Made by a program: the position numbers and the translations under genes. Below, one piece after another: positions 398-44,093 of a stretch of 64,000 nt of DNA. The stretch lies in assembly GCF_056712565.1 (NCBI RefSeq), contig NZ_CM160072.1. One strand, given 5' to 3'. Below the pieces are notes generated by a model. That model was not told where the DNA came from and did no database searches. It saw nothing but the letters and a program-made list of their open reading frames with translations. Numbering within the stretch: position 1 is the first letter of the stretch; each line of letters begins with the position of its first letter.

Positions 398-416
398 TGG
401 TGGTGGGGGAAGGATT
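398..416 (-). repeat. Partial tRNA-Tyr 3'-end copy (rtT/tpr-type repeat distal to tyrV)
   Basis: 19-nt tggtggtgggggaaggatt is identical to the 3' ends of the two tRNA-Tyr genes at 575-593 and 693-711, then diverges. Confidence 0.5.
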
Positions 417-574
417 ACTCAGCGCTGCGCGCTTCGCCCTACGGGTCGTTGCCTGCGGCAACGCTCTCTCGCTGGCCTCGAGTCGAACCTTGGTCGAAGC
501 TTCTCATCCTTCCCCGCATGGGCAGAATATTTAATTGCGGATTCGTTTGAGAATTCAGGGGCTTTTGTAAGCGA

Positions 575-659
<85 letters not shown>

Positions 660-692
660 AGGGGTAATTCATATTGTAGGTAATGCTTGAGA

Positions 693-777
<85 letters not shown>

Positions 778-30988: not shown

Positions 30989-31173
30989 TGCCAGCATCCT
31001 TTTTGTATCGGACGTAAACGGGCCAACATTGAAAGAATGCATATTTTATTTAATAGCTCCCGTTCGTGTTTTCTCTTGTTAATGGCATCTTCAGTAAATA
31101 CAGGGTTACTGATAGTGACACCAATTTCAAAACAACCTTCAGACGTATTAACGTTTGGTAATAACGTTTCCAT
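30985..31173 (-). CDS. Hypothetical early-left protein
   Basis: 62 aa from METLLPNVNTSEG... with GAGGA RBS; the track ORF is longer. Confidence 0.35.
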   Translation of the reverse strand: METLLPNVNTSEGCFEIGVTISNPVFTEDAINKRKHERELLNKICILSMLARLRPIQKGCWQ

Positions 31174-31738
31174 TATCGCGTCCTCAACAATGAATTTTGT
31201 GATGCGGTGCCTGGTGCTTCCAGGTGACGTTAACCAGTTAACAATTAACGCCGGATACAGAGAATCCACCCATAACACTGTTTTTGGTTTTAACTGTTCC
31301 GCGTGCGCTTAGCCGCATTCACCGCATCACAAAATTCACTTTAAAAAGGGCGGCAGAGCAGTCACGGAGTAAAACTGATACCGCCAAACGTCACCAGAAA
31401 ATTGATAACAGAGGGCGTTGCAGCGGGGTTGTCACTTAAGCGTATGGTCAACCTGACAACCCGGTGTCCTCAACGGTGGAAGGAATAACCCCGCCATACT
31501 TACCGCCGCGCCATTTCGCGGATTGCCACAACCGGAAGCGCACGGTCGACGAAAATTTAACGACAGGCTATCTATGAACCAGCTACCTCGCCGTGCGCTT
31601 TCGCGTTATGGTCTGACTTTTCAGGGAAATATCCTTTCAGTAAACTGTCAGTGCCGGATGCTCACCCGTGTCCGGCGCACGCACTCCACCTCACCCGTGG
31701 AGAACTCCTTAATTACCAACCTTAGCTTCGTTGGTTAG

Positions 31739-38131: not shown

Positions 38132-38342
38132 TTTTATATTGGCGAGGTGACGGGAGTTAAGTAGAATTGCTGCGGGTGCTTGAGGCTATCTGCCTCAGGC
38201 ATGAACACCAAAGGCAGATAGAGAAAAGCCCCAGTTAATATTACGCGTCCTGCAAGACGCTTAACATTAATCTGAGGCTCAATCTATGAACGGCAAATCT
38301 AGGTTAGCCTCTTACGTGCCGAAAGGCAAGGAGAAGCAGGCT

Positions 38343-38498
38343 ATGAAGCAGCAAAAGGCGATGTTAATCGCCCTGATCGTCATCTGTTTAACCGTCATAG
38401 TGACGGCACTGGTAACGAGGAAAGACCTCTGCGAGGTACGAATCCGAACCGGCCAGACGGAGGTCGCTGTCTTCACAGTTTACGAACCTGAGGAGTAA
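38343..38498 (+). CDS. hok: Hok/Gef-family type I membrane toxin
   Basis: 51 aa MKQQKAMLIALIVICLTVIVTALVTRKDLCEVRIRTGQTEVAVFTVYEPEE. Confidence 0.85.
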   Translation: MKQQKAMLIALIVICLTVIVTALVTRKDLCEVRIRTGQTEVAVFTVYEPEE

Positions 38499-41769: not shown

Positions 41770-42819
41770 ATGCTTAATACTGTAAAAATATCCAGTTGTG
41801 AGTTAATCAACGCCGACTGCCTGGAATTTATCCGGTCGTTACCCGAAAATTCTGTTGACCTGATAGTCACGGACCCGCCGTACTTTAAAGTGAAGCCTGA
41901 GGGCTGGGATAACCAGTGGAAGGGCGACGATGATTACCTGAAGTGGCTGGACCAGTGTCTGGCGCAGTTCTGGCGGGTGCTGAAACCTGCCGGAAGTCTT
42001 TACCTGTTCTGTGGTCATCGCCTGGCATCTGATATCGAAATCATGATGCGTGAACGCTTCAGTGTGCTGAACCATATTATCTGGGCGAAGCCGTCCGGAC
42101 GCTGGAACGGATGCAACAAGGAAAGCCTGCGGGCGTATTTCCCCGCCACAGAGCGCATTCTGTTCGCGGAACATTATCAGGGGCCGTATCGTCCGAAAGA
42201 TGCCGGGTATGCGGCGAAGGGCAGTGCACTGAAACAGCATGTGATGGCCCCGCTGATTTCTTACTTTCGTGATGCGCGCGCGGCCCTGGGGATAACGGCA
42301 AAACAGATTGCAGATGCCACAGGAAAGAAAAACATGGTGTCGCACTGGTTCAGTGCCAGTCAGTGGCAGCTACCGAATGAAAGCGATTATCTGAAATTAC
42401 AGGCGCTGTTTGCCCGGGTGGCAGAAGAGAAGCATCGGCGTGGTGAACTGGAAAAGCTCCACCACCAGCTGGTGGATACGTATACCTCACTGAACCGGCA
42501 GTATGCGGAGCTGCTGAGTGAATATAAACATCTGCGGCGGTATTTTGGCGTGACGGTGCAGGTGCCGTATACCGATGTGTGGACGCATAAACCGGTGCAG
42601 TTCTATCCCGGGAAACATCCGTGCGAAAAACCGGCAGAAATGCTGCAGCAGATAATCAGCGCAAGTAGCCGTCCTGGTGATCTGGTTGCGGATTTTTTCA
42701 TGGGGTCGGGTTCAACGGTAAAAGCGGCGATGGCACTGGGGCGTCGTGCGATTGGTGTTGAGCTGGAGACCGGACGTTTTGAGCAGACAGTCAGGGAAGT
42801 TCAGGATTTAATCGTTTGA
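41770..42819 (+). CDS. Orphan DNA methyltransferase (N6-adenine/N4-cytosine family, motif IV DPPY before motif I FxGxG)
   Basis: 349 aa with DPPY at the N-terminus and DFFMGSGST near the C-terminus; no adjacent restriction endonuclease gene. Confidence 0.8.
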   Translation: MLNTVKISSCELINADCLEFIRSLPENSVDLIVTDPPYFKVKPEGWDNQWKGDDDYLKWLDQCLAQFWRVLKPAGSLYLFCGHRLASDIEIMMRERFSVLNHIIWAKPSGRWNGCNKESLRAYFPATERILFAEHYQGPYRPKDAGYAAKGSALKQHVMAPLISYFRDARAALGITAKQIADATGKKNMVSHWFSASQWQLPNESDYLKLQALFARVAEEKHRRGELEKLHHQLVDTYTSLNRQYAELLSEYKHLRRYFGVTVQVPYTDVWTHKPVQFYPGKHPCEKPAEMLQQIISASSRPGDLVADFFMGSGSTVKAAMALGRRAIGVELETGRFEQTVREVQDLIV

Positions 42820-42868
42820 AACGGATGAGATTGCAGAATTAATTACGCACCATTATTATTCTGCTCCC

Positions 42869-42944
42869 GGCCCTTTAGCTCAGTGGTGAGAGCGAGCGAC
42901 TCATAATCGCCAGGTCGCTGGTTCAAATCCAGCAAGGGCCACCA
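42869..42944 (+). tRNA. Phage tRNA with anticodon CAU (Ile2/Met; ileZ-like)
   Basis: 76-nt cloverleaf, acceptor ggccctt/aagggcc, anticodon loop ct-CAT-aa, T-loop GGTTCAAATCC, encoded CCA. Confidence 0.8.
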
Positions 42945-42951
42945 TCACATA

Positions 42952-43028
42952 CCGCCATTAGCTCATCAGGAAAGAGCGCCAGCCTTCGAAGCTGGTTGCG
43001 CGGAGTTCGGGTCCCCGAAGGCGGTCCA
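42952..43028 (+). tRNA. Phage tRNA-Arg (UCG), slightly degenerate (argN-like)
   Basis: Anticodon stem ccagc/gctgg with loop ct-TCG-aa; D-stem gctc/gagc; one acceptor and one T-stem mismatch; encoded CCA. Confidence 0.55.
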
Positions 43029-43041
43029 TTATCTGTATCCT

Positions 43042-43118
43042 GCGTTGTTAGCTCAGCCGGACAGAGCAATTGCCTTCTAAGCAATCGGTCACTGGTTCGA
43101 ATCCAGTACAACGCGCCA
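43042..43118 (+). tRNA. Phage tRNA-Arg (UCU) (argO-like)
   Basis: Perfect 7-bp acceptor gcgttgt/acaacgc, anticodon loop ct-TCT-aa, T-loop GGTTCGAATCC, encoded CCA. Confidence 0.8.
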
Positions 43119-43134
43119 CACTTATTTTCCCTGG

Positions 43135-43158
43135 CTCGCTTTTGCGGGCTTTTTTTTA
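43135..43158 (+). terminator. Intrinsic terminator after the tRNA cluster
   Basis: gctcgc-tttt-gcgggc followed by T8. Confidence 0.6.
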
Positions 43159-43161
43159 AAT

Positions 43162-43380
43162 GTCTCACAATTCAGGCGGTTGACTGTTGTCTGGTTTGCG
43201 GGGAGTTTGTTAAAAGAAACTGGCATGGTGAATCCCCCTGTGCGGAGGGGCAATCAGCGAGTAGGTATATGGGATAATCGCGGATTCAGGTGCTGGTACT
43301 GAATTCACCGGGAGGCACCCGGCACCATGCAATGGCACATAGCGCCACTCTCCAGCCCCTCTCCGGAGGGGCTTTTCTGT
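43162..43380 (+). ncRNA. Non-coding unit 1 (candidate sRNA): conserved boxes plus terminator
   Basis: ctcacaattcag / TTGACT / gcatggtgaatccccctgtgcggagggg / caccgggaggcacccggcaccatg / cccctctccggaggggcttttctg; no credible ORF. Confidence 0.4.
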
Positions 43381-43567
43381 GCCGGATACATCACAGTTTC
43401 TGGAACCTTAGGTACTACAGTATCAGTCAGGGTGCTATATTTTCAGATGTGATGAAAGCCTGTCAGCAGGCAGGGCGTATCGGAAATGACCCAGTAGAGA
43501 AAACGTTGACTCAGATACCGGTGCTGAGTTACCGGGAAACCGGCATCACATGACCGCTATCCTTCCA

Positions 43568-43595
43568 GGCCCATCCGCTCCGGTGGGCCTTTTTA
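43568..43595 (+). terminator. Intrinsic terminator between the two non-coding units
   Basis: ggccca-tccgctccgg-tgggcc followed by T5. Confidence 0.6.
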
Positions 43596-43630
43596 CTGCA
43601 GAAAACAGGTTCCCCGTTAAATGCTATGTT

Positions 43631-43866
43631 GCTCACAATTCAGTAAGTTGACAGTTGCCTGTCAGACTGGGCATTTGTTAAAAAAATTTCGCATGGTGAA
43701 TCCCCCTGAGCGGAGGGGCGACTGGTGACGGTATAATCTCTGATTATCAAAACGAGAATGACGCGGGTTTAGTGGCACCGGGCTGAACTCACCGGGAGGC
43801 ACCCGGCACCATGTGCATGATGATACAGATACGCGGCTTTAGCCCCTCTCCGGAGGGGTTTTCTTG
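43631..43866 (+). ncRNA. Non-coding unit 2 (candidate sRNA), diverged paralog of unit 1
   Basis: Same ordered boxes as unit 1 (TTGACA, gcatggtgaatccccctgagcggagggg, caccgggaggcacccggcaccatg, cccctctccggaggggttttcttg). Confidence 0.4.
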
Positions 43867-44093
43867 TGGGCAAAAAAAGCCCGCGCTGGGAGACGCGGGC
43901 GGCAAGGAATAAACAATAAAACGTGAAGTAATATTTCAGCTGGCGAATAATACCCCATAGTAATCACTCTGCGCAACTGCGCGGTCTTTTTCGAATTGCG
44001 GGCTGTCGTCTCTCTTCTGCCATTGTCCTGTAACTTCCGGACTTCAGCCCGCTCCTTATTTTACTCACAATATTATCCCGGCCGGGAGGATTC

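What the first reader, a model, noticed from the sequence alone, without database searches (positions are those of the whole stretch)
43120..43900. Two homologous non-coding units with hairpins and terminators in the late-region cargo slot
About 1 kb after the tRNA trio has no credible ORF. It contains two diverged copies (~43162-43380 and ~43631-43866) of a unit with the same ordered boxes: ctcacaattcag, TTGAC(T/A)gttg, gcatggtgaatccccctg(t/a)gcggagggg, caccgggaggcacccggcaccatg, and a terminator hairpin cccctctccggagggg plus T-run. Conservation of hairpin-forming blocks with divergence between them points to structured RNAs rather than protein. Their function is unknown.
Basis: partly seen in the sequence, partly recalled or inferred. 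Interest (0 to 1): 0.65.

Follow-up and report, generated by a model that had tools for sequence, protein, structure and literature searches.

The report
Tandem STnc100 prophage small RNAs
The two repeated non-coding units are copies of STnc100, a catalogued prophage small-RNA family of unproven function (with a third, diverged copy between them), so the finding is real but not new, although the family's conserved core proves to be a pseudoknotted fold that also occurs inside mRNA leaders.

Summary
Window 43120-43900 holds two diverged direct repeats with the stated boxes and terminators, and no credible ORF. Both units match Rfam RF02076 (STnc100) at 136 and 161 bits against a threshold of 47. 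STnc100 is a described prophage sRNA family: 11 copies in EDL933, one Northern-confirmed, Hfq-bound as EcOnc27/sRNA103 next to stx2B, and related to EPEC PasD. The slot, Q - methylase - three tRNAs - [cargo] - STnc100 - DUF1737 - holin, is the one Stx2 phages use.

What I add:
- The stretch between the two units (43445-43555) is a third, diverged unit with its own extended -10 promoter and terminator.
- The core fold (P1, P2, P4, P5) shows strong covariation, and a pseudoknot is supported (z about 19).
- The same core joins at least 9 different 3' linkers, and PasD's mapped interaction site lies in that linker.
- Diverged copies sit in the dicF-dicB spacer (here and in K-12) and in a porin mRNA leader in Klebsiella, Enterobacter and Kosakonia.

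Best model: stand-alone Hfq-associated sRNAs made of a constant structured 5' domain, a variable seed linker and a terminator. The terminators also shield the lysis genes when Q is absent. Function remains untested. This is an already known family, of modest interest.

The parts
43133..43158 (+). Intrinsic terminator closing the tRNA trio (Met/Ile2-CAT, Arg-TCG, Arg-TCT at 42869-43118)
   Evidence: Terminator scan; tRNAs from ARAGORN.
43164..43216 (+). Unit 1 promoter region: CTCACAATTCAG box (43164-43175), TTGACT (43180-43185), -35-like TTGTCT (43187-43192), extended -10 TGtTAAAAG (43208-43216). The predicted TSS is at about 43222, the start of P1.
   Evidence: Read from the sequence. TTTGTTAAAA is the best-conserved upstream element among 48 distinct E. 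coli-type copies. The TSS is inferred, not measured.
43221..43334 (+). Unit 1 core. P1 43223-43230 / 43323-43330; P2 43234-43250; pseudoknot 43253-43259 with 43291-43297; P4 43283-43289 / 43299-43305; P5 43308-43312 / 43318-43322.
   Evidence: Rfam STnc100 136 bits over 43194-43384; core model R1 102 bits; pseudoknot pair ATCAGCG/TGCTGGT.
43331..43381 (+). Unit 1 single-stranded linker (43331-43353, candidate seed) and intrinsic terminator (43354-43373 plus U-run)
   Evidence: Terminator scan; linker class 'CAATGGCACATAGCGCCACTCTCCAG' is the commonest of at least 9 classes.
43433..43598 (+). Unit 2, the diverged middle copy: extended -10 TGcTATATT (43433-43441), core 43445-43555, linker, terminator 43567-43590
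   Evidence: R1 30 bits, E 1.7e-6; Rfam STnc100 30 bits, below threshold. P2 is kept by compensatory changes relative to phage homologues, and there is no coding signature.
43632..43684 (+). Unit 3 promoter region: CTCACAATTCAG (43632-43643), TTGACA (43648-43653), -35-like TTGCCT (43655-43660), extended -10 TGtTAAAAA (43676-43684). The predicted TSS is at about 43691.
   Evidence: Read from the sequence; conservation.
43689..43871 (+). Unit 3 core (43689-43818; pseudoknot CUGGUG/CACCGG), linker (43819-43840), terminator 43841-43860 plus U-run
   Evidence: Rfam STnc100 161 bits over 43662-43871; R1 89 bits; terminator scan.
43872..43976 (-). Convergent minus-strand sRNA candidate: promoter-like TTGCGC-18-TATTAT, an RNA of about 70 nt, terminator 43900-43879. 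It occupies the place that AsxR/AgvB holds in EHEC prophages.
   Evidence: Terminator scan and sequence. The same sequence follows STnc100 in phage Stx2_95. The Rfam AsxR/AgvB models do not match it, although they do match Sakai Sp5. Its 3' end resembles an EPEC RIL-seq candidate.
31198..31329 (-). Diverged fourth copy of the core, in the dicF-dicB spacer. Its P1 ends 28 nt before the dicB ATG at 31172, and it has no terminator of its own.
   Evidence: R1 66.8 bits, E 1e-16, with a compensatory P5 (CCUGG/CCAGG). Rfam STnc100 scores only 37.7 bits, below the threshold of 47. Sequence. K-12 has the same element.

Best explanation
The region is a tandem array of three independently transcribed small-RNA genes of the STnc100 family (Rfam RF02076). 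It lies in the cargo slot of a lambdoid prophage's late region, between the Q antiterminator and tRNAs on one side and the lysis cassette on the other.

Each unit has three parts:
- a sigma-70 promoter with an extended -10 that should start transcription at the first helix (inferred);
- a pseudoknotted 5' domain of about 110-130 nt, comprising P1, P2, a variable P3, P4 whose loop pairs with the strand after P2, and P5 (shown by covariation);
- a 3' module made of a 20-45 nt single-stranded linker plus an intrinsic terminator with a U-tail.

By analogy with its relatives EcOnc27 and PasD, the 3' module binds Hfq and the linker base-pairs with mRNAs in trans (inferred). The three units carry different linkers, so they should have different targets. 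The structured 5' domain is a constant module whose own role is unknown; stabilisation or binding of a partner are the candidates.

A second, passive effect follows from lambdoid late-gene control. Four same-strand terminators lie between the tRNAs and the convergent gene (five before DUF1737), and they stop lysogen transcription from reaching the holin and lysis genes unless RNA polymerase has been modified by Q.
For: Identity:
- Rfam STnc100 at 136 and 161 bits against a threshold of 47.
- The query is 100% identical in UTI89, S88 and other genomes, and 2867 of 5426 E. coli genomes hold a match.
- The gene order matches Stx2a phage and Sakai Sp5.

Fold:
- 94.5% of cells pair on 18 sequences and 93.2% on 145, against about 45% when partners are slid. 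21 of 25 pairs have double-sided changes, and 0 of 500 shuffles reach the observed values.
- Pseudoknot: cognate score 5.91 against a permuted 4.19 +/- 0.09, 0 of 5000 permutations, and a control window shows no signal.

Modularity:
- The same core is joined to at least 9 linker classes.
- PasD1's RIL-seq chimera segment and its seed UGUGAG map to the linker and terminator, not the core.

Expression and Hfq binding of relatives:
- STnc100 copies are transcribed and one is Northern-confirmed in EDL933 (PMC5331693).
- EcOnc27/sRNA103 was recovered by Hfq-CRAC and seen on Northern blots (PMC4104026, PMC7873438).
- RpoD is bound at STnc100 promoters in LT2 (PMC10794520).
- PasD abundance is unchanged in a hfq deletion strain (log2FC +0.55 and -0.18), which fits a self-stabilising 5' domain.

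Other points:
- The extended -10 TTTGTTAAAA is the best-conserved upstream element.
- Terminators are enriched, 10 found against 1.7 expected.
- The region is not coding.
Against: - No expression, 5'-end or Hfq data exist for this strain's copies. The TSS is predicted only, and Rfam's model begins 29 nt upstream of P1.
- The only targets reported for any STnc100 copy come from overexpression (fimZ, espA), with no mechanism shown (PMC7873438).
- The U-tails are short (UUUUC).
- The core is far more conserved than the linkers, the reverse of a typical seed-driven sRNA.
- The same fold occurs where it cannot be a stand-alone sRNA: the dicB leader, a porin mRNA leader in 16 loci, and back-to-back arrays without intervening promoters or terminators.

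The core may therefore have a primary function that the sRNA model does not capture.
Confidence: 0.6

Rival explanations
1. The conserved core is primarily a cis-acting 5' domain of longer transcripts. It would protect or process the RNA downstream of it: lysis-gene leader, dicB mRNA, porin mRNA or tRNAs. On this view the stand-alone sRNA units are a derived use or a by-product.
For: - The core sits 28 nt upstream of dicB with no terminator, both here and in K-12.
- In 16 loci from four genera it forms the 5' end of a KdgM-family porin leader, with no U-tailed terminator before the start codon.
- In Enterobacter prophage L060, three cores lie back to back with 6-20 nt AU-rich spacers between Q and the holin gene.
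- Cores directly precede tRNA genes in L019 and L026.
- In Pantoea-type loci the element follows a sequence homologous to lambda's late leader.
- Predicted start sites fall at P1, so the 5' end would be sequestered.
Against: - In the window each unit has its own promoter-like element and terminator, so in a lysogen it is made as a separate short RNA.
- A single hairpin would be enough to protect a 5' end, so this does not explain a conserved pseudoknotted junction.
- No processing data exist.
- The lambda homology is weak (8 bits, E 0.05).
Confidence: 0.2
2. The core is a receptor for a specific partner, either a small ligand (riboswitch-like) or a protein. The units would then act as sensors or decoys rather than as base-pairing regulators.
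For: - The junction and loop nucleotides (AAU, GCG, CA, the P5 loop AGGCA) and the 21-nt P5 box are identical across many genera, while the helices covary.
- A pseudoknotted multi-helix junction is typical of aptamers.
- The core occurs upstream of genes, in 5' leaders.
Against: - No conserved expression platform exists. Linkers fall into at least 9 unrelated classes, and the porin leaders differ in length from 82 to 204 nt.
- The downstream genes share no evident theme (lysis, dicB, porin, tRNA).
- No ligand or protein candidate emerged.
- No overlapping Rfam riboswitch family matched.
Confidence: 0.12
3. The region encodes small proteins, for example the 55-aa 'hypothetical protein' annotated over the middle unit in phage records, or the 87-aa ORF at 43290-43553.
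For: Three ORFs match PHROG families of unknown function, the best at E 7e-30. Phage records annotate a 55-aa CDS there. One EDL933 STnc100 copy had ribosome footprints (PMC5331693).
Against: - The PHROG hits lie on both strands of the same DNA, and none matches NCBIfam.
- The phage CDS loses its ATG in the window (ATG to ATA).
- Codon changes are 14 non-synonymous to 5 synonymous, and substitutions fall evenly on codon positions (8/10/9).
- The same substitutions preserve the RNA helix P2.
- The P1 'ATG' is not conserved in other genera.
Confidence: 0.03
4. The units are inert duplication or recombination scars of the mosaic prophage late region, with no function of their own.
For: CTCACAAT boxes flank the units and recur at 44066 and in Sakai Sp5, which would fit module boundaries in a recombination hotspot.
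Against: Helices are maintained by compensatory changes across many genera, and within arrays the P1 sequences are completely different yet complementary. Relatives are abundant transcripts (PMC5331693, PMC8550237).
Confidence: 0.02

Closest known systems
STnc100 (Rfam RF02076), also reported as EcOnc27 in O157 Sakai and sRNA103 in EDL933
   Same: Units 1 and 3 match the full-length model at 136 and 161 bits. They have the same helices and the same slot downstream of Q, the tRNAs and cargo and upstream of the lysis genes. Like the Sp5 copy, the array is followed by a convergent small-RNA gene.
   Different: Here there are three tandem units instead of one, there is no stx or nanS-p cargo, and the linkers differ from the Sp5 copy. 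The middle unit falls below Rfam's threshold.
PasD1/PasD2 of EPEC E2348/69 (Pearl Mizrahi 2021; Zhu, Shabalina and Storz 2026 preprint)
   Same: The same architecture of promoter, pseudoknotted core, single-stranded linker and terminator, in the same prophage slot (Q ... PasD ... holin). The core is recognisably homologous (R1 35 bits).
   Different: PasD has a reduced P5 and a compact P2, a longer U/C-rich linker carrying the seed UGUGAG, and a different terminator. The window units score far higher as STnc100 proper.
AsxR/AgvB anti-sRNAs (Rfam RF02703, RF02702; Tree et al. 2014)
   Same: They are the convergent partners of STnc100-type genes in the same slot. The window has a minus-strand promoter and terminator in exactly that position.
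   Different: The window's minus-strand candidate does not match either Rfam model at E <= 1. It is a different sequence family, shared with phage Stx2_95.
Lambda 6S RNA / StxS (the pR'-tR' leader transcript)
   Same: A short terminated transcript in the late region whose terminator is overridden by Q-modified polymerase.
   Different: STnc100 units lie downstream of the tRNAs and cargo, not at pR' next to Q. In Sp5 the STnc100 copy is 3' of stx2B, whereas StxS is 5' of it (PMC7873438). There is no sequence relationship.

Membership tests
STnc100 (Rfam RF02076) | Covariance-model score at or above the curated gathering threshold of 47 bits | tested here: met
   Unit 1 scores 136.3 bits and unit 3 scores 161 bits, both full length over model positions 1-206. 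The middle unit scores 30.1 bits and the dicB-leader copy 37.7 bits, both below threshold.
STnc100 (Rfam RF02076) | Consensus helices: closing P1, the CCCCC/GGGGG hairpin, the P4 hairpin, the CCGGG-AGGCA-CCCGG hairpin and a 3' terminator | tested here: met
   All are present in units 1 and 3. In the middle unit they are present with compensated sequences.
STnc100 (Rfam RF02076) | Prophage location in the late-region slot between Q and the lysis genes | tested here: met
   The UTI89 annotation gives antitermination protein - methylase - 3 tRNAs - units - DUF1737 - holin. The order is the same in Stx2_95 and Sakai Sp5.
STnc100 (Rfam RF02076) | Expressed as a discrete Hfq-associated small RNA | not testable with these tools
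   This is shown only for relatives in other strains (PMC5331693, PMC4104026, PMC7873438).
PasD | PasD-type 3' module: U/C-rich linker with seed UGUGAG and the terminator GGCUGCGCAUGGCGCGGCC | tested here: not met
   The window linkers and terminators are different. Only the core is homologous.
AsxR/AgvB anti-sRNA (for the convergent minus-strand candidate) | Match to Rfam RF02703 or RF02702, including the conserved 42-nt 3' region | tested here: not met
   There is no hit at E <= 1 in 42800-44200. As a positive control, Sakai Sp5 gives AsxR at 88 bits.
Riboswitch | Conserved aptamer coupled to a conserved expression platform upstream of functionally related genes | tested here: inconclusive
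   An aptamer-like conserved pseudoknotted core is present. However, no conserved platform was found: there are at least 9 linker classes and the porin leaders vary in length. The downstream genes are unrelated.
Protein-coding gene | Conserved open frame with an excess of synonymous changes | tested here: not met
   The start codon is lost, codon changes are 14 non-synonymous to 5 synonymous, and substitutions are even across codon positions. No NCBIfam match.

The most novel reading that the evidence does not exclude
The STnc100/PasD core is not just the body of one sRNA family. It is a widespread, modular, pseudoknotted RNA domain of Enterobacterales that works in several settings: at the 5' end of stand-alone sRNAs, in arrays in lambdoid late leaders, in the dicF-dicB spacer of E. 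coli K-12, and in a chromosomal porin mRNA leader. It would have a common, still unknown molecular function, such as binding a specific protein or ligand, or acting as a dedicated RNA-stabilising or processing module. The pseudoknot and the cis-leader members do not appear in the papers I could search.
Probability: 0.35. Interest if true: 0.65.

Novelty: already known. Interest (0 to 1): 0.35.

Why it matters
As a finding it mainly confirms that the scan can pick out real structured RNA genes from raw sequence. The units are members of a catalogued family that annotation pipelines using Rfam already label.

What could matter is the family itself. It is among the most abundant sRNA annotations in enterobacterial genomes, and it sits next to Shiga toxin genes, where variants near its promoter were linked to HUS outcome (PMC12711010). 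Yet it has no established function.

The core is a covariation-supported pseudoknotted domain, the candidate target-recognition part is a swappable 3' linker, and the domain also occurs in the K-12 dicB leader and a porin leader. Together these give concrete, testable handles, including one in a standard laboratory strain.

Tried and rejected
1. RNase III lead. The dicB-leader copy has a P1 of about 20 bp, and from memory I suspected it was the RNase III site that shapes DicF. The 2023 dicBF preprint maps the RNase III cut to the 5' side of DicF and detects no dicF-dicB species. Not supported.

2. ManS. This RNase III-processed Salmonella sRNA lies in a sialic-acid cluster that includes an outer-membrane channel gene (STM1131). 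It is STnc500, an unrelated 81-nt 3'-UTR RNA.

3. Phage lambda homologue. At the same place in the late leader there is a perfect 9-bp P1 plus the AAU junction, but the interior differs, and R1 gives only 8 bits (E 0.05). Too weak to claim.

4. Identity with the pR'-tR' leader (6S/StxS-like). Rejected on position: the units lie after the tRNAs and cargo, not next to Q.

5. TTGAC(T/A) as the -35 element. It lies 25 bp from the conserved -10, which is too far. TTGTCT/TTGCCT at 18 bp fits better. The role of the CTCACAATTCAG and TTGAC boxes remains unexplained.

6. Protein coding. The PHROG matches are explained as ORF calls over conserved non-coding DNA.

7. Convergent partner as AsxR/AgvB. Not met.

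8. PasA. I first read the PasA-related motif at 44393-44425 as an antisense PasA gene. The supplement shows it is a PasA target-type motif, and I did not pursue it.

9. HK022 put-like antiterminator RNA. Considered but not tested.

Full report
**Observation.** Window 43120-43900 follows three tRNA genes (Met/Ile2-CAT, Arg-TCG, Arg-TCT at 42869-43118). It contains two diverged direct repeats:
- 43164-43251 against 43632-43719 (88 nt, 80% identical);
- 43299-43329 against 43783-43813 (31 nt, 97% identical);
- a terminator repeat at 43354-43381 and 43841-43868, with a weaker third copy at 43571-43598.

Terminator-like sites are strongly enriched, 10 found against 1.7 +/- 1.5 in shuffles. The ORFs in the region are short and overlap on both strands.

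**Identity.** Both units match Rfam RF02076 (STnc100) over the full model: 136.3 bits for 43194-43384 and 161 bits for 43662-43871, against a gathering score of 47. The 781-nt stretch is 100% identical in UTI89, S88, IHE3034, NU14, ATCC 11775 and others. At least 80% of it is present in 351 of 5426 complete E. coli genomes, and parts of it in 2867.

The UTI89 annotation gives the context: RusA - antitermination protein - small ORF - DNA methyltransferase - three tRNAs - [this region, with only a pseudogene fragment annotated] - DUF1737 - class II holin - lysozyme. Stx2a phage Stx2_95 and Sakai Sp5 have the same order, with stx2AB inserted between the tRNAs and a single STnc100 copy.

**What the literature says.** STnc100 is a catalogued, abundant family (PMC9029176).
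- EDL933 has 11 copies, all transcribed, one confirmed by Northern blot (PMC5331693).
- The copy 3' of stx2B overlaps the Hfq-bound sRNA EcOnc27/sRNA103. It forms a convergent pair with the anti-sRNA AsxR, and such pairs sit between the late promoter and the lysis genes in at least eight Sakai prophages (PMC4104026, PMC7873438).
- Overexpressing sRNA103 raises fimZ and espA transcripts by an unknown mechanism (PMC7873438, PMC12711010).
- A 2026 preprint relates STnc100 to the EPEC sRNAs PasD1/2 (10.64898/2026.05.13.724894).

The function is not established. The finding therefore rediscovers a known family.

**A third unit.** Rfam gives a sub-threshold match at 43423-43596 (30 bits). A core model I built (R1, see below) finds 43445-43555 at E 1.7e-6. 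This copy keeps P1 (UGUGAUG/CAUCACA), P4 (GACUCAG/CUGAGUU) and P5 (CCGG/CCGG). It has its own extended -10 (TGcTATATT, 43433-43441) and its own terminator (43567-43590).

Compared with phage homologues (PhiR5_2, vB_EcoS-733R4), 7 of the 8 core substitutions fall in P2, and all the stem changes keep pairing (C-G to U-A, U-A to U.G, U.G to C-G). The 55-aa CDS annotated there in the phage records does not behave like a gene: it loses its start codon in the window, shows 14 non-synonymous against 5 synonymous codon changes, and has substitutions spread evenly over codon positions (8/10/9). PHROG matches of three ORFs, on both strands, are best explained as ORF calls over conserved non-coding DNA, and NCBIfam has none. 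The array therefore has three units.

**Structure.** I scanned public collections with the 21-nt P5 box and with a 14-nt 5' box. The genome loci come from many Enterobacterales genera, including Enterobacter, Citrobacter, Klebsiella, Kosakonia, Pantoea, Erwinia, Rahnella and Salmonella.

On 18 diverse cores, P1, P2, P4 and P5 pair in 94.5% of cells, against 42-48% with slid partners, and 15 of 26 pairs show double-sided changes. On 145 model-aligned sequences the values are 93.2% against 39-47%, 21 of 25 pairs, and a covariation score of 0.435 against 0.144 in shuffles, with 0 of 500 shuffles reaching it. That alignment was fitted to the model, which favours the structure. The MAFFT-based result and the slid controls agree with it.

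A pseudoknot joins the strand 3-6 nt after P2 to the loop of P4. Each RNA's own loop pairs better than the loops of other members: 5.91 against a permuted mean of 4.19 +/- 0.09, z = 18.9, 0 of 5000 permutations, with 96 distinct 5' strands. A control window shows no signal. In the window the pairs are AUCAGCG/UGCUGGU (unit 1) and CUGGUG/CACCGG (unit 3). I found no mention of this pseudoknot in the papers I could search; the preprint used RNAalifold, which cannot predict one.

**Promoter and modularity.** Among 48 distinct E. coli-type copies, the best-conserved upstream element is TTTGTTAAAA. This is an extended -10 ending about 6-7 nt before P1, with TTG(T/C)CT 18 bp upstream. Transcription should therefore begin at P1. 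This is a prediction, and Rfam's model starts 29 nt further upstream. Its role, and that of CTCACAATTCAG, is unexplained.

Downstream, the same core is joined to at least 9 unrelated linker classes, one of them with a PasD-type 3' end. In PasD1 the RIL-seq chimera segment (1060384-1060434) and the seed UGUGAG fall in the linker and terminator, not in the core. PasD levels do not drop without Hfq. This supports a modular design: a constant structured 5' domain, a variable seed linker, and a terminator that also serves as the Hfq-binding module.

**Other settings of the same fold.**
- dicF-dicB spacer. The window has a fourth, diverged copy at 31329-31198 (-), in the spacer between DicF and dicB. 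It scores 66.8 bits with R1 and has a compensatory P5 (CCUGG/CCAGG). It ends 28 nt before the dicB ATG and has no terminator. Rfam gives it 37.7 bits, below threshold. K-12 MG1655 has the same element (L245 454-585, 63.6 bits).
- Arrays. Tandem arrays are common. An Enterobacter cancerogenus prophage has six copies, a tRNA-like gene and several terminators between Q and the holin gene. Three of the cores lie back to back and have completely different, complementary P1 sequences. Rfam labels most array members as STnc100.
- Porin leader. In 16 loci from Klebsiella, Enterobacter, Kosakonia and Citrobacter, the element lies on the same strand about 70-200 nt upstream of a KdgM/OmpL-family porin gene that is followed by a PelW-like lyase. 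No U-tailed terminator lies in between.

The fold therefore also exists as part of longer transcripts.

**Mechanism.** The best-supported account for the window's units is that they are stand-alone sRNA genes acting through Hfq and the linker seed. Their terminators also insulate the lysis cassette from lysogen transcription unless Q is present; that step follows from established lambdoid late-gene control and was not tested here.

The identity is near certain. The trans-acting mechanism rests on relatives and is moderately likely. What the conserved core does is open. A cis-acting stabilising or processing role (about 0.2) and a ligand- or protein-binding role (about 0.12) are live rivals. 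Coding and inert-scar explanations are effectively excluded.

**Verdict.** The finding is a real feature that was correctly read as structured RNA, but it belongs to an already known family. Interest is modest for the finding itself. The family-level observations (pseudoknot, modular linkers, cis-leader members including one in K-12) are the part worth following up.

Noticed in passing
window 31198-31329 (-); K-12 NC_000913 1649453-1649584 (L245 454-585): A diverged STnc100-type core with compensatory changes in P2 and P5 fills the dicF-dicB spacer. It ends 28 nt before the dicB start codon, and P1 can extend to about 20 bp. Rfam scores it below threshold, and the dicBF papers I read do not describe it.
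   Followed up: partly
window 43872-43976 (-): A convergent minus-strand sRNA candidate (TTGCGC-18-TATTAT promoter, RNA of about 70 nt, terminator 43900-43879) occupies the AsxR/AgvB position but does not match those Rfam models. The same sequence is in Stx2a phage Stx2_95, and its 3' end resembles the EPEC RIL-seq candidate E2348C_1409.E2348C_1408.IGR.
   Followed up: partly
L045 5155-5285 (-) and 15 other loci (L005, L016, L032, L033, L047, L057, L064, L074, L088, L092, L093, L096, L105, L108, L123): A chromosomal, single-copy version of the fold forms the 5' end of the leader of a KdgM/OmpL-family porin gene, with a PelW-like lyase gene behind it in at least 9 of the loci. It is found in Klebsiella, Enterobacter, Kosakonia and Citrobacter. 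A conserved short hairpin and ACCUUUGG precede the SD.
   Followed up: partly
L060 7100-9000 (-), L072, L085, L019, L039, L082: Dense tandem arrays of 4-6 STnc100-type cores lie between Q and the holin gene in non-E. coli prophages. Some cores are back to back with AU-rich spacers of 6-20 nt, and in L019, L060 and L072 they are interleaved with tRNA genes, including in L060 and L072 a tRNA-like gene that ARAGORN reads with a 4-nt anticodon.
   Followed up: partly
L246 1057-1145 (phage lambda 44856-44944): Lambda's late leader between tR' and S has a perfect 9-bp helix (GUUGUGCUG/CAGCACAAC) followed by AAU, at the position where Pantoea-type prophages carry the element. The flanking sequence is homologous but the interior is different. 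It may be a remnant; the evidence is weak (8 bits).
   Followed up: partly
window 43164, 43632, 44066; L003 about 6393 and 6806: The box CTCACAAT recurs upstream of units 1 and 3 and again just before the DUF1737 gene, and likewise in Sakai Sp5. It may be a module boundary or a binding site; this is unexplained.
   Followed up: no
L003 6437-6451 (Sakai Sp5, +90 to +103 after stx2B): The HUS-associated SNP and T-deletion reported downstream of stx2B (PMC12711010) map, by my coordinate conversion, onto the extended -10 (TGTTAAAAA) and the stretch between it and P1 of the STnc100 copy. That is the predicted promoter and 5' end.
   Followed up: partly
window 44393-44425 (+): The sequence GATAGAAAGTCTGGCGCTGGAGATAAATGCA closely resembles the PasA target motif listed for E2348C_0688 and E2348C_1246 in the EPEC RIL-seq supplement. 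It lies between the DUF1737 gene and the holin gene.
   Followed up: no
window 398-777 (-), 31348-31399 (-), 38174-38348 (+): Other Rfam matches in the window: RtT and two tRNA-Tyr genes (the tyrTV locus) at the left end, DicF, and a sok antitoxin RNA next to a hok-type toxin gene upstream of the Q region.
   Followed up: no
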